Assembly (NCBI GenBank): GCA_023920165.1
Contig: CP089277.1
Coordinates: 3,658,001-3,722,000, forward strand
From: Curvularia clavata
Taxonomy: Eukaryota
DNA: 64,000 nucleotides
Direction of reading: 5' to 3'
Below are positions 28,736 through 43,663 of the stretch, one piece after another (within the stretch, counting starts at the first letter, position 1; every line of letters begins with the position of its first letter). The translations under genes and the position numbers were made by a program. The notes under the pieces are model-generated. The model saw only the letters and a program-made list of their open reading frames with translations, was not told where the DNA came from and did not search any database.

Positions 28736-30910
28736 ATGATTCTCGCTTGGTCTTCCATTGCTGTTTTTGCAACCTGTGTGATTGCAGCAAACACAGAGAG
28801 CGCCGAATATGATTATGTTATAATCGGTTCAGGGCCTGGCGGGGGATCTCTCGCGTATGTCATTGATTTTCTTCCAGATTTTCTACCGTATTAACAGATG
28901 ACACAGGGCTAATCTAGCAACGAGCGGATACTCTGTTTTCCTCATAGAAGCGGGAGGCGACGGCACAGATGAATTCGTTGAAGAAATCCCATCCTTGTAG
29001 GTTGATGTTTCGAGTCCCGTTACCATGCTGACAATTGTCGAAGAAATTCCGTTGCTGCCGAAGCCCCTCCTCACTCGTGGAGCTTTTTTGTTGAACATTT
29101 CGCGAACGAGACTCAGGCCCGACGCGATCCAAAGTATGCTTACTTAAGGAGCAATGGATCATACTACGTGGGTCTTGACCCTCCTGAAGATTCAAGTCCG
29201 TATGTACACATTGTATTTTCAACCAGGAAGCCCAATTCTCGCTGACGCGCCACCAAATATAGTTTGGGTATCCTCTATCCTCGAGGTGCGACACTTGGCG
29301 GTAGCTCGCAAGTCAACGCCATGAATTTTGCGTGGGCGCCCGACAATGAGTGGGATTACATTGCCAACCTCACTGGAGATGACACCTGGGGACATGAATT
29401 CATGCGAAAGCATCTCATTGAGCTTGAGAACTGCACGTATGTTCCGCATGGCACTCCTGGACATGGCTTTGATGGTCCGCTTGTAGTAAGTTTGCTATAG
29501 TCCAGCTCGGTGATTGCCACTAACGCGTAGCGAAACACTTAGTCCAGTATGATGGATCCGTTGATGACATCTGGAATTACATCGGAGAATGTGGCTCTTG
29601 TCGTGTCATCTCTAATTCGTGAGACTGAAGGTATCGAAGCGGGGGACGTTCAGCAGTTGGCAGAGTTGCTTGTCCGTGATATTAACAGAGTAGATTCGGA
29701 TCGCTACGCAAGTAATCTGACATTCATGCTACCACTAGCGGTCGATCCCACCAGCGGTAGCAGGAGTAGCATCGGGAAACATATCAACGACGTGGTAGAA
29801 GCTGGACATCCCTTGACGATCAGTCTCCATTCACTGGCAACCAAAGTTCTTCTTGAAGAGTGTGATGGGAAGCCAAAAGCCTTTGGTGTGGAATACATGG
29901 TTGGAGAAGGATTGTACTCGGCGGACCGCAGGTACAATCCATCGCAGCAGGCAGAAGAATCTAAGACCGTTCGCGCCAGGAAGGAAGTCATTGTATCAGG
30001 AGGCACGTTCAACACTCCTCAGATTCTGAAACTTAGCGGAATTGGACCGCGCGAGGAACTAGAGGAGCTTGAAATACCCGTTGTAGTTGATTTACCGGCA
30101 GTGGTAAGCTTCACATGCACATCAGGTTCTTGATTATCTCAGCTAACGATACTTCAGGGCAACTTTATGCAAGACAATTACGAAACACCAATCCACGTGA
30201 GAGCCGAAGTCCCGTGGCAAGAGACTGCGAACATACCTTGCACCAGGACTTTCAACGAATCGGACCCATGCTTTGTTGCATGGAGCACAAACGGGACTGG
30301 TCCTTACTCCTTATCCGGCGGTACTTTCTTCCTGACCTGGCGAAGCAGTGTGAGTTGGGACGAAGATGCAGATCTTTTCTTCCTCAGTGCAGCTGGCTGG
30401 GGTGATTCTGGTTTCTATCCCGGCTTTTCTCTCCGACAGCCTGTACCGGATATGTGGGGAAGTTCAATAGTGAAGATGCAGACTGCTAATCCTTCTGGAA
30501 GCGTACGTCTTCAGTCCAAAGATCCGCGACAGGCTCCGAAGATCAACTTTAACTTTTTTTCTGAGAATTCCGAAAAGGACCTACAAGCTCTGGAGGAGGG
30601 CGTCAAGCTCATGATGCGTGTCTACGACGATGCTGGAATACCCTACACAGTAGTCTCGCCAAACCCAGAAGTTGAGATGCATCAGGCTCTCATGGATGAA
30701 GCATTTAGTCACCATGCTTCAAGCAGTTGCCGCATGGGTCCAGCAGATGACCGAAACTCGTGTGTAGACTCCAAATTCCGAGTACATGGTGTTGACAGTC
30801 TTCGTGTGGTCGACGCTTCCGTCTTCCCACGTGTGCCAGGTGCTATGCCAAACGGACCAACCTTTACTATTTCTCGCAAGGCGTACGCAGCTATCTTGGA
30901 AGATGCCTAA
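28736..30910 (+). CDS. Secreted GMC oxidoreductase (AA3 / choline dehydrogenase-like)
   Basis: Signal-like N-terminus, FAD motif [62 protein letters not shown] and [22 protein letters not shown]. About 5 GT-AG introns; looks intact. Confidence 0.93.
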
Positions 30911-31604
30911 GAGACAGCTTGATGGCTGCATCGAAGCAGTGACTAGGGCGGCGTAGCTTGGGTGCCGCTAACATAGAGGGCTGATCAGCGATATCGAGAA
31001 TTTTGCGGATACGACGGATTATTTTCGCAGGTGTGCAAGGATAGCTCAAAATGGATTCGTTTCGTCCGATATTCCTTCTGTGTAACGTCTTAGTGAATTT
31101 TCAGGAAATGATGAATTAGTAGGCCACTACTCCGGATCTAGCCAAAAATCCAAGTTATGCTTGAACTCTGACATATAAATCAGCTTTCACTTATCCAGGG
31201 CATGTGATGGCACGGTAGATCCTGCATGTTTATCAAGTCAAACGGGAACCTTTCAGTTAGTACTACTACCATTATGCCATAGATGAGGGGGAATGGTAGA
31301 GACGAGGCTAACAACTCTCCAATTGCAGCATATCTAGCATTAGTTTTGGTTTGCAAAGCACATCCTGCACTATAATGTGGAAAGCTTCTTTTGACGAAGA
31401 CGTCCCTTTATCCGCAACACCACTAACAACAGTAGCCAATTGATTGATTCGACGTTTTGGAAGCACCCTAACCGAAAATAGCTGGCTATCATCTAAGAGG
31501 GAGTGACCTGCATAAAACCTAAGCCCTTCTTGATCGTCCGAGATGTCATTACAATTGATGGCGAGGGATCGAACGGAGCGCTTCAACATGTCCACGACCC
31601 AATC

Positions 31605-31607
<3 letters not shown>

Positions 31608-41527: not shown

Positions 41528-42357
41528 GGCCAAGAGTGTATCTCTCGGTCCTCACACGGAATGTGGCGCCTTGATGTAAAAGGTTTCTTATGGTTTGTAG
41601 GCTGTGAGTAGAGATCAAATTTGTCTCTAAGATAGTAACTTGCTCTAAGGATAGTGGCTAAGCCCGTCTAATGTTCTGGTCCCAAATTCGAGCACAATAG
41701 TCAAAGATGCGCCCGTAATGAGCACCGCAGCTGCAGCAGAGCTTGCTACGCTGCTACTTTTAGCAGGAATTCCTATATTCGCAAGCGCTCTTCCACAAGT
41801 TCATTTTCCTCTTTGAGATCAAGATCAGGTGGCGGTGGCGTATTTGCAGTGGGATGACATCCGGGTCTACTCTAACGGCTTAGCTATCAGAGCCACGTTT
41901 TTCGCGTAGTTGTTCCGCTATTACTACAGCTGAGACATCCTACATCGTGGCTACCCCATTCATATAGTACAAAGAGGCTTTTTCACATGTATGAACATGC
42001 GTATGTGTACTCAGCAATGAAAATCCTTGTGAATTAGGCCTCTACACATAGATTATGATCGCCACAAGTAGATGGCGCACTCTCATACCGAAATTGGGCC
42101 TTTTCTTCTTTTGCAATGAAAAAAAAACGTAGGATTAACCTGATTAATTCACGAGATACAGAAGCGGAATGAAGGTAAGATTAAGTATCAAGATCTACTC
42201 TTTCTCTAAGACTATCATATTCTAAGTAAACACTGCTTTGAAAAAGTCATGACTGGTTGCGTTACTGATGCCACTAATGAGCTACATCTTGACCTGAACC
42301 GAATAAACCAAAATCCCGCCCTTAGAAATATCGGGTTATATATACATAGTTGTGGGT

Positions 42358-43663
42358 TCAACTAGATCCCGGCTCACTTGTTATGCTGATTTCTTCGACT
42401 CGATGTGTTTTACCTGGCTCCTGCATAGTCAGCTCCACCTCACTGTCAGACATCTCCCCAAGATTGGCTGGGCGTTTCTTCCATATTCCTGTACTGAAAT
42501 CGGCCTTGGAAGCTCGTGCACGGGTAGTTTTATCTTTGCTGGCTGAGAACGGGGAATTGTGCTGGCTATTGGATGCTATGGAGTAGATCCTGGAGAGTAG
42601 AGGTCGGAGGGAAACCATGGAAAGTATAATGATAGGTATGGTAAACTCGGCTGTAGCGAGAACATCTTTCAAAGTCAGTACTAGTGCTGCAGCGATGTGC
42701 CAAGAACTTACAGATGGAAATATCATTTGCTACTATAAGCATCGCAATGAAACGAGCGAGGCTGACTATGATCGTGATGGCACCGAGCATGAATACGAAT
42801 AAAAGACCAGCTCTCTCGCGTTTGAGACGTAGATTTAGTCCGCGTATTAGTGGAAAGGGAAGTAGGAAAACTACAAGATGTCTATGTTAGCCCAGTTCGA
42901 GAAAAGACCAACTTGCGGGAAGAAGTAGAGCAAGGAGCTCTTCTCCCCTGTTGCCCACAAGAACTTCAAACACCTCACTTACTGAGGACTTCGGATGTGA
43001 AGTTAAGTGCCCAGTTAAGTTTGACTAGGCTCATAGAGGTGTATGCTTGACACTCCATATCTGGTGACCTGTACAACAAACAGTTCAGCATGCAGCCAGT
43101 ATTAATAGTCAAAGTCTAACCGTACCAGTTATTTGCAGGACGAGAACCGCACCAGAAAGTATCAGCAAAAAGTGTAGTCAGGCTGGACAGGATGGCGAAC
43201 ACAATAGCACCATATAGCGCTTTGCGAAGGGTCGGGGTCGTTCGAGGTACGATAATGGCATAGAAAGCCAGCATGCTGAACTTGGGAAAATACAGCCCGA
43301 CATCGAAGAAGTAGTTGCTAGCGAAACGAATCTGGAATGGGTGAGCAAGACTTCGGCTTTACGTTAAATATGCCCACCTTCATAATTGTAGCTGTATTTC
43401 CTGTGAATGAATCCATTGCTCCAAGTCTGTACGTCAAGGTGTCGCAGATGACTAGCCCTAAAGCAGCCAATATGGCAAGTATAAGCATAGAGTCAGACAC
43501 AATATGGGTCTTCTGGCCCATGTGAAAATGTAAGAATATGCGAGCATTCACCAGCAAAAACGACAGGGCGAGAAGAAACCATTCAGACGCCTGAATTGAC
43601 TTAGTTACGGTAGCCGTTCCATGGGCAACATAGACTCACGATTACGCCCTTTGGGTTAATCAT
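42358..43663 (-). CDS. PTH11-like / fungal rhodopsin-domain integral membrane protein
   Basis: Multi-exon: SEWFLLALSFLLVNARIFLH...SDSMLILA...FASNYFFDVGLYFPKFSMLAFY...DTFWCG...C...WALNFTSEVL.....P...F.LGAITIIVSLARF...AEFTIPIIILSMVSLRPLL, a 7-TM rhodopsin-domain pattern. Confidence 0.82.

What the first reader, a model, noticed from the sequence alone, without database searches (positions are those of the whole stretch)
28736..43663. No ABA4-type SDR in the window; a GMC oxidoreductase sits nearby instead
Seen: I find no short-chain dehydrogenase (TGxxxGxG...YxxxK) in the window, whereas an intact FAD-dependent GMC alcohol oxidoreductase lies about 4 kb from the cyclase. Known: the last ABA step in Botrytis is oxidation of the 1',4'-diol by BcABA4. 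Inference, three options: the pathway stops at ABA-diol or another derivative, it uses an unlinked SDR, or the GMC enzyme performs the 4'-oxidation, possibly outside the cell given its signal peptide. The last option would be a pathway variant I do not know to be described.
Basis: inference. Interest (0 to 1): 0.7.

Follow-up and report, generated by a model that had tools for sequence, protein, structure and literature searches.

The report
Three-gene abscisic-acid cluster, bystander oxidase
This fungus carries an intact three-gene cluster for the abscisic-acid skeleton that lacks the last dehydrogenase, an arrangement already published for other fungi, and the secreted oxidase next door is most likely an unrelated neighbour rather than a replacement enzyme.

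Summary
No SDR lies in the window (control 17 of 17). An intact, spliced 633-aa GMC gene ends 4.2 kb from an intact aba3 cyclase, which is flanked by two P450s.

The GMC-replaces-ABA4 idea is poorly supported:
- aba1-3 clusters without aba4 are published (Colletotrichum, Diaporthe). Botrytis aba4 knockouts accumulate the diol with traces of non-enzymatic ABA.
- None of 46 aba3 loci has a GMC, though flanks are short.
- Close aba3 relatives carry other genes on that side.
- The GMC's closest named relatives come from fungi not seen in the aba3 list. Three species in both lists have the genes on different contigs.
- The GMC faces its own regulator-like gene and has Met where GMCs usually have the second catalytic His/Asn.

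BcABA4 itself could not be searched. Unlinked SDRs of a similar type exist, but no clear orthologue.

A side lead: this aba3 groups with Pyrenophora seminiperda (a maker of pyrenophoric acids and ABA) and Parastagonospora nodorum. The product is most likely ABA-diol or a relative, finished outside the cluster.

The parts
26627..28000 (-). Fungal_trans_2-like regulator-type gene (457 aa, single ORF), head-to-head with the GMC, about 0.74 kb between the starts; probably outside the ABA cluster
   Evidence: No Pfam hit. ESM Atlas: 10 of the 10 best family hits are PF11951-type, score 0.97. RNA contigs cover parts of it.
28736..30910 (+). Secreted-type GMC oxidoreductase, 633 aa. Exons 28736-28854, 28907-28996, 29044-29199, 29263-29485, 29543-30103, 30158-30910. 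Has the FAD-binding GxGxxG, His568-His569, and Met613 at the usual second His/Asn site.
   Evidence: Gene model; introns in RNA contig of X19; Pfam; homologues; fold of the 86%-identical P0121.
31311..32051 (-). Decayed Zn2Cys6-type regulator relic (first Cys lost, in-frame stops, a TG-repeat inside); likely the old left edge of the cluster
   Evidence: Zn_clus E 3.6e-5. 30% identity, E 3.6e-10, to the ORF that follows aba3 on the same strand in clade-mate L005.
33400..33960 (+). 186-aa AflR-like C-terminal regulator domain with no zinc cluster found upstream; transcribed
   Evidence: ESM Atlas: AflR/CcsR_C clusters, score 0.96, AflR on 15-45% of members; structure TM 0.71. RNA contig 33380-34051 in X14. 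No zinc-cluster motif seen in the + frames of 32000-33420.
35125..36489 (-). aba3-type alpha-ionylideneethane synthase, 410 aa, exons 36489-36425, 36365-36054, 35980-35125
   Evidence: Both introns skipped in RNA contigs of 3 of 3 RNA runs. 60% to BcABA3, 75% to P. nodorum, 71% to P. seminiperda; 12 of 13 named BcABA3 active-site residues identical; two CxxC motifs. PDB 8ZAC E 2.8e-114.
36797..38665 (+). Cytochrome P450, 528 aa, 6 exons, divergent from aba3; taken as the aba2 type (label recalled, not tested against BcABA2)
   Evidence: Open model; Pfam p450. Same divergent layout with 52-81% identical segments in L001, L004, L005.
39741..41527 (+). Cytochrome P450, 506 aa, 5 exons; taken as the aba1 type (label recalled, not tested against BcABA1)
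   Evidence: Open model; Pfam p450; 3 of 4 introns in the listed RNA joints, the last exon start in the pieces table. 32-40% homologues beside aba3 in L010 and L014-L017. No paralogue at E<=1e-15 in the genome.
42358..43663 (-). Fungal rhodopsin-domain (Pth11-like) membrane protein, intact; right-hand neighbour, membership unknown
   Evidence: Pfam Fung_rhodopsin; 5 introns in RNA contig of X14; open model.

Best explanation
The window holds a three-gene ABA-type cluster (aba3, aba2-like and aba1-like P450s) with regulator remnants on its left edge, inside an accessory island. By analogy with Botrytis, the cyclase turns FPP into alpha-ionylideneethane, one P450 oxidises it to alpha-ionylideneacetic acid, and the other makes the 1',4'-diol. 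The diol is the last product the cluster encodes. Any ABA arises outside the cluster and incompletely: by spontaneous oxidation, by a non-dedicated SDR, or in the host plant. The GMC belongs to a separate unit with its own head-to-head regulator-like gene, and its substrate is unknown. Shown: gene content, intactness, splicing, cyclase active site, absence of an SDR. Inferred: P450 roles, products, and the independence of the GMC.
For: aba1-3 clusters with aba4 elsewhere and unexpressed are published for C. tofieldiae, C. incanum and D. helianthi (PMC10482981). bcaba4 is not essential (PMC6876084); its knockout gives the diol with trace non-enzymatic ABA (PMC11210036). 0 of 46 aba3 loci have a GMC or an SDR, so lacking an SDR is not special. 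Clade-mates L001/L002 have a third P450 (and a transferase, Pfam-confirmed in L002) on the GMC side; L005 has the regulator that is a relic here. 0 of 7 named species with the closest GMCs appear among the 120 aba3 hits listed. The P. nodorum aba3 cluster stands for 140 contigs, whereas no listed GMC cluster exceeds 4. The 3 species named in both lists have the genes on contigs of different length. The GMC:aba3 contig depth ratio flips from about 3:19 (X14) to 101:7 (X19), a weak hint only.
Against: Only 14 of 46 loci reach 4.3 kb downstream of aba3, only 6 do so on both sides, and several are near-duplicates. None of the five clade-mates reaches the GMC's distance (longest 3,939 bases). Only 120 of 360 aba3 hits were visible, and clusters hide member species. 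GMC and cluster are collinear in a 97%-identical relative (X9), and both are transcribed in X14 and X19. The P450 labels rest on recall, and no metabolite data exist for this fungus.
Confidence: 0.6

Rival explanations
1. The GMC is a bystander, and a dedicated but unlinked SDR completes ABA efficiently. Candidates: G000:C2:3022907, C8:2127882, C1:5037351, C2:4073662.
For: The genome has many SDRs: 225 first-look candidates and 55 matches to one of them. These four places match two stand-in SDRs at 37-51%. CtABA4 lies apart from its cluster. P. seminiperda, with the nearest named aba3, makes ABA.
Against: No SDR stands out. The best reaches 48-50% to stand-ins chosen by recalled likeness to BcABA4, and none of its 120 listed hits shows an ABA4 name (names are cut short). 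In C. tofieldiae the unlinked aba4 was not expressed with the cluster.
Confidence: 0.2
2. This divergent aba3 clade makes pyrenophoric-acid-type 4'-hydroxy products rather than ABA, possibly as precursors that the host plant's own SDR finishes.
For: The window's aba3 sits in a 100*-supported six-row clade on a long stem with P. seminiperda and P. nodorum (quick tree). P. semeniperda makes pyrenophoric acids A-C and ABA. P-acid B needs plant ABA2, which is proposed to oxidise its 4'-OH. Clade-mates carry varying tailoring genes.
Against: P-acid B is saturated at C-2'/C-3' (implied), which needs a reductase not found in the window. The strain sequenced and the strains extracted may differ. No paper found ties these acids to a gene cluster.
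Confidence: 0.13
3. The GMC replaces ABA4 and oxidises the allylic 4'-OH of the secreted diol outside the cell.
For: Intact, transcribed, 4.2 kb from aba3, with only regulator-type genes in between. It keeps the catalytic His and the GMC fold. No characterised close relative exists (best structural matches 26% or less), so its substrate is open. GMCs serve in other clusters (patulin synthase appears).
Against: Never seen beside aba3 (0 of 46 loci); separate species distribution; its own head-to-head regulator-like gene; depth ratio to aba3 flips between runs (weak). 0 of 112 readable homologues have His/Asn at the second catalytic site. It is a widespread clade (1,096 hits), not an ABA-specific one. 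The step needs no replacement to give some ABA.
Confidence: 0.06

Closest known systems
Botrytis cinerea bcaba1-4 cluster (BcABA3, PDB 8ZAC)
   Same: Cyclase 60% identical with 12 of 13 named active-site residues kept; two P450s beside it.
   Different: No SDR; an aba3 from a different clade; regulator remnants and a GMC nearby.
aba1-aba3 clusters of Colletotrichum tofieldiae, C. incanum and Diaporthe helianthi (PMC10482981)
   Same: Three genes, with aba4 absent from the cluster.
   Different: In C. tofieldiae and D. helianthi the cluster is joined to botrydial genes; none were seen here. The aba3 here is only 56-58% identical to the C. liriopes and Diaporthe sp. proteins.
Pyrenophora seminiperda and Parastagonospora nodorum aba3 (P0003, P0002)
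   Same: Same clade, 71-75% identical, sharing I121T and the changed segment at BcABA3 307-309.
   Different: Their gene neighbourhoods could not be read. No description of these clusters was found in the papers searched.
Leptosphaeria maculans ABA cluster (Darma et al. 2019, seen only through PMC7986464)
   Same: Dothideomycete ABA cluster; aba3 61% identical.
   Different: All Botrytis ABA proteins have matches there and a PKS is included; the window has neither SDR nor PKS.
AA3 GMC oxidoreductases (aryl-alcohol oxidase 5OC1, choline oxidase 2JBV, patulin synthase 8BXL)
   Same: Same fold (TM 0.69-0.76 by query), FAD motif, catalytic His.
   Different: Identity 26% or less; a His-His pair, and Met/Phe/Trp in place of the second His/Asn; no characterised member of this clade found.

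Membership tests
Fungal ABA cluster (Botrytis type) | ABA3 cyclase with E124, R202, Y242, K249, H250, R312, Y313, pocket residues and Zn motif | tested here: met
   12 of 13 named residues identical; I121 is Thr, a position the paper finds tolerant; two CxxC motifs.
Fungal ABA cluster (Botrytis type) | Two linked intact P450s orthologous to BcABA1 and BcABA2 | tested here: inconclusive
   Two intact P450s are present, with homologues beside other aba3 genes. BcABA1 and BcABA2 were not available, so orthology is recalled.
Fungal ABA cluster (Botrytis type) | Linked ABA4 SDR | tested here: not met
Fungal ABA cluster (Botrytis type) | ABA production | not testable with these tools
   Needs LC-MS.
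aba1-3 cluster without aba4 (C. tofieldiae type) | aba3 plus two P450s, no SDR in the cluster | tested here: met
aba1-3 cluster without aba4 (C. tofieldiae type) | aba4 orthologue elsewhere in the genome | tested here: inconclusive
   Only stand-in queries; best 48-50% at G000:C2:3023000.
GMC oxidoreductase superfamily | FAD-binding motif, N and C domains, GMC fold | tested here: met
   fold shown on the 86%-identical P0121.
GMC oxidoreductase superfamily | Catalytic His plus second His/Asn | tested here: not met
   His569 kept; Met613 aligns with the Asn of 8B7S and 9LQ0 and the His of 8RPF. 0 of 112 readable homologues have His/Asn. The catalytic role of this position is recalled.
Cluster tailoring enzyme (GMC as member of the ABA cluster) | Conserved linkage to aba3 | tested here: not met
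   0 of 46 loci, with short flanks; 3 of 3 shared species on different contigs.
Cluster tailoring enzyme (GMC as member of the ABA cluster) | Co-expression with aba1-3 | tested here: inconclusive
   Only contig depths were available, and they cannot rank genes.

The most novel reading that the evidence does not exclude
A secreted GMC of an uncharacterised His-His/Met clade has been recruited in this one lineage to oxidise ABA-1',4'-diol outside the cell. It would replace the cytosolic SDR and let the fungus activate the hormone in the plant apoplast.
Probability: 0.06. Interest if true: 0.65.

Novelty: new member of a known kind. Interest (0 to 1): 0.28.

Why it matters
As it stands the finding is ordinary: a missing aba4 is a known arrangement and needs no substitute. 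Two side results have some value. The aba3 clade shared with P. seminiperda and P. nodorum gives a testable candidate cluster for the pyrenophoric acids, which I found tied to no genes in the papers searched. The GMC represents a large secreted clade with a non-canonical active site and no known substrate. If the GMC did finish ABA, it would be a new last step for fungal ABA and the first function for that clade.

Tried and rejected
- A direct search with BcABA4 was not done: no tool returned its sequence. The 46 aba3 loci held no SDR to borrow, and a homologue search from the likeliest own SDR listed none named ABA4.
- The cluster-member look-up could not be made, so species hidden inside 90% clusters are unknown.
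- DNA around GMC relatives could not be fetched: the one metagenome scan went to aba3.
- Run X21 covers aba3 and both P450s but has no GMC contig. A hole in contigs proves nothing, so it is not counted.
- The two aba3 paralogues (G000:C7:2841478, C3:4254751) have no SDR or GMC within the stretches fetched (about 20 kb each side), so neither supplies aba4.
- A promoter scan for an AflR-type palindrome (motif recalled) found none in six non-coding stretches. Scattered CGG..CCG pairs had no control: uninformative.
- The careful aba3 tree did not finish, so the quick tree is cited. The L005 row was read in one frame across an apparent frameshift, so its branch length is unreliable.
- A search for 'abscisic acid' with 'GMC oxidoreductase' gave 10 papers, seen as a listing only; none links the two in title or abstract start.
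- Earlier-finding look-ups by place and by sequence were empty.
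Full report
ANATOMY. The window is intron-rich fungal DNA whose proteins are closest to Pleosporales records; I did not identify the species. It is G000:C4:3658001-3722000 of a 32.4-Mb, 8-contig genome. Between a uracil-DNA-glycosylase-family gene (21.5-22.5 kb) and the genes beyond 51 kb lies a somewhat AT-richer island (mostly GC 0.44-0.50). From left to right it holds: decayed DUF7708/DUF7025 pieces; a Fungal_trans_2-like gene (-); the GMC (+); a decayed Zn2Cys6 gene (-); an AflR-like C-terminal ORF (+); aba3 (-); two P450s (+); and a rhodopsin-domain gene (-).

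OBSERVATION. The GMC model is open over 633 aa with five GT-AG introns, all skipped by one RNA contig of run X19. It ends 4,214 bases from aba3. aba3 is open over 410 aa; RNA contigs of 3 of 3 RNA runs show two introns, one of which I had not predicted. Both P450 models are open with heme-Cys and ExxR motifs. An HMM from 17 own-genome SDRs found nothing in the window, while finding 17 of 17 SDR loci outside its training set. Pfam found no dehydrogenase in 31 plus 89 ORFs.

THE CYCLASE. It is 60% identical to BcABA3 and keeps 12 of the 13 residues named in PMC11695735 (sections 9 and 10 read). The exception is I121T, a position that paper finds tolerant. It should therefore make alpha-ionylideneethane (inference). 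Its nearest named relatives are P. nodorum (75%) and P. seminiperda (71%). With three unnamed sequences these form a six-row clade at 100* in a quick tree of 36 rows. The genome has two further aba3 paralogues, with no SDR or GMC in the stretches fetched around them. The aba1 and aba2 labels of the P450s rest on my recall of the Botrytis proteins. What was tested is that homologues of both lie beside aba3 elsewhere, and that the aba2-like gene has the same divergent layout in L001, L004 and L005.

IS A MISSING ABA4 UNUSUAL? No.
- PMC10482981 (section 8 read): the cluster consists of ABA1-ABA3 in C. tofieldiae, C. incanum and D. helianthi, and CtABA4 lies elsewhere and was not expressed during root colonisation.
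- PMC6876084 (passages): bcaba4 is involved but not essential.
- PMC7961390 (passages): the diol itself triggers ABA-type responses in tobacco.
- In my sample, 0 of 46 metagenome aba3 loci carry an SDR.

IS THE GMC PART OF THE CLUSTER? Five lines bear on it.
(1) Linkage. 0 of 46 aba3 loci match any of six GMC queries at E<0.01. The test is limited: 14 of 46 reach 4.3 kb downstream of aba3, 11 upstream, 6 both; several are near-duplicates; none of the five clade-mates reaches the GMC's distance. What they do show differs from the window. L001 and L002 have a third P450 directly after aba3, followed in L002 by a transferase. L005 has a regulator-like ORF homologous (30%, E 3.6e-10) to the window's relic at 31.3-32.05 kb, which suggests the relic marks the cluster's edge.
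(2) Distribution. The closest named GMCs (80-86% full length where complete) come from B. oryzae, Macroventuria, Paraphoma, Curvularia kusanoi, two Didymella species and Boeremia. None of these 7 species is among the 120 aba3 hits listed of 360. The P. nodorum aba3 cluster stands for 140 contigs, yet none of the 120 GMC hits listed of 1,096 stands for more than 4. C. liriopes, Bisporella sp. and Monosporascus ibericus are named in both lists; in 3 of 3 the two genes have contigs of different length. Species inside clusters could not be listed.
(3) Context. The GMC is head-to-head with a regulator-like gene of its own.
(4) Expression. Contig depth for GMC versus aba3 is about 3 versus 19 in X14 and 101 versus 7 in X19. 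The tool warns that such depths cannot rank genes, so this is a weak hint. Against my reading, both genes are transcribed in both runs, and a 97%-identical relative (X9) keeps the whole stretch collinear.
(5) Chemistry. The 86%-identical P0121 has a GMC fold (pLDDT 93; best matches 26% identical or less). His568-His569 is kept in 118 of 120 hits. The position that holds Asn or His in the three solved GMCs aligned is Met613. Across 112 readable hits it is Met 49, Phe 59, Trp 4 and never His/Asn. This marks an uncharacterised clade rather than a dead enzyme, and neither proves nor bars activity on the diol. PMC10967070 (passages) notes that much fungal AA3_2 sequence space has no known activity.

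IS THERE AN UNLINKED ABA4? Undecided. BcABA4 could not be obtained. Two stored SDRs chosen by recalled likeness were used as stand-ins. Their best match in the genome is C2:3023000 (48% and 50%), followed by C2:4073662, C8:2127900 and C1:5037350 at 37-51%. None is a clear orthologue, and the 120 listed hits of the best one show no ABA4 name.

MECHANISM. Most likely (0.6), FPP is cyclised and then oxidised by the two P450s to the 1',4'-diol, the last cluster-encoded product; ABA then forms partly and outside the cluster. A dedicated unlinked SDR gets 0.2. A pyrenophoric-acid-type product gets 0.13: P. semeniperda makes these acids and ABA (PMC9503419, passages), and P-acid B needs the plant's ABA2, proposed to oxidise its 4'-OH and desaturate C-2'/C-3' (PMC6793445, first fifth and passages); but the ring reductase this would need is not in the window. 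The GMC route gets 0.06. The GMC is a bystander in about nine cases of ten.

NOVELTY. This is a new member of a known kind. I found no paper linking a GMC to fungal ABA (listing only), and none describing the P. nodorum/P. seminiperda-type cluster (listings only). The library lacks most subscription papers. Siewers 2006, Takino 2019 and Darma 2019 were seen only as cited. L. maculans details come from passages of PMC7986464, and PMC5395610 (passages) already notes ABA-cluster homologues in Pyrenophora and Alternaria. No supplements were read; the gene trees in the supplement of PMC10482981 may already include this clade. An earlier AI note (e1-7568979) describes an ABA cluster with PKS and acyltransferase in another genome; it is a lead only.

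VERDICT. Observation confirmed; headline inference not supported; interest 0.28.

Noticed in passing
window 30437-30575 region of the GMC protein (residues 568-569 and 613); P0121-P0240: The whole GMC clade has an invariant His-His pair, and Met/Phe/Trp instead of the second catalytic His/Asn (0 of 112 canonical). It is a large secreted clade with no characterised member found.
   Followed up: partly
G000:C7:2841478-2842666 and G000:C3:4254751-4256108: Two more aba3-family genes in the same genome. The C7 copy is very divergent (long branch, changed motifs), sits beside a P450 and a retrotransposon near the contig end; the C3 copy has no P450 beside it.
   Followed up: partly
L001:3139-4635, L002:3363-4910: Close aba3 relatives carry a third P450 and an acyl transferase, suggesting further hydroxylated or acylated ABA-like products in this clade.
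   Followed up: partly
L022:2709-20148: aba3 with two aba2-like P450s, a transferase and a PKS, a layout like the one described for L. maculans.
   Followed up: no
L005:1240-2123: The aba3 of this clade-mate is split over two frames, and its regulator's N-terminal part also looks broken; may be decay or assembly error.
   Followed up: no
window 33400-33960 and 31311-32051: A transcribed AflR-like C-terminal domain without a zinc cluster sits beside a decayed full regulator with a TG-repeat expansion; how the cluster is switched on is unclear.
   Followed up: partly
window 22700-26200: Fragmented DUF7708 (NACHT-associated by recall) and DUF7025/AAA-ATPase-like pseudogenes on opposite strands.
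   Followed up: no
window 49722-50114 (-): Small protein with a signal-peptide-like start, alanine-rich, no Pfam match; possible secreted protein at the island's right edge.
   Followed up: no
P0065, P0075, P0086, P0110: Actinobacterial aba3 homologues at 53-57% identity; the two placed in the quick tree (P0065, P0086) group with a Lasiosphaeria protein.
   Followed up: no
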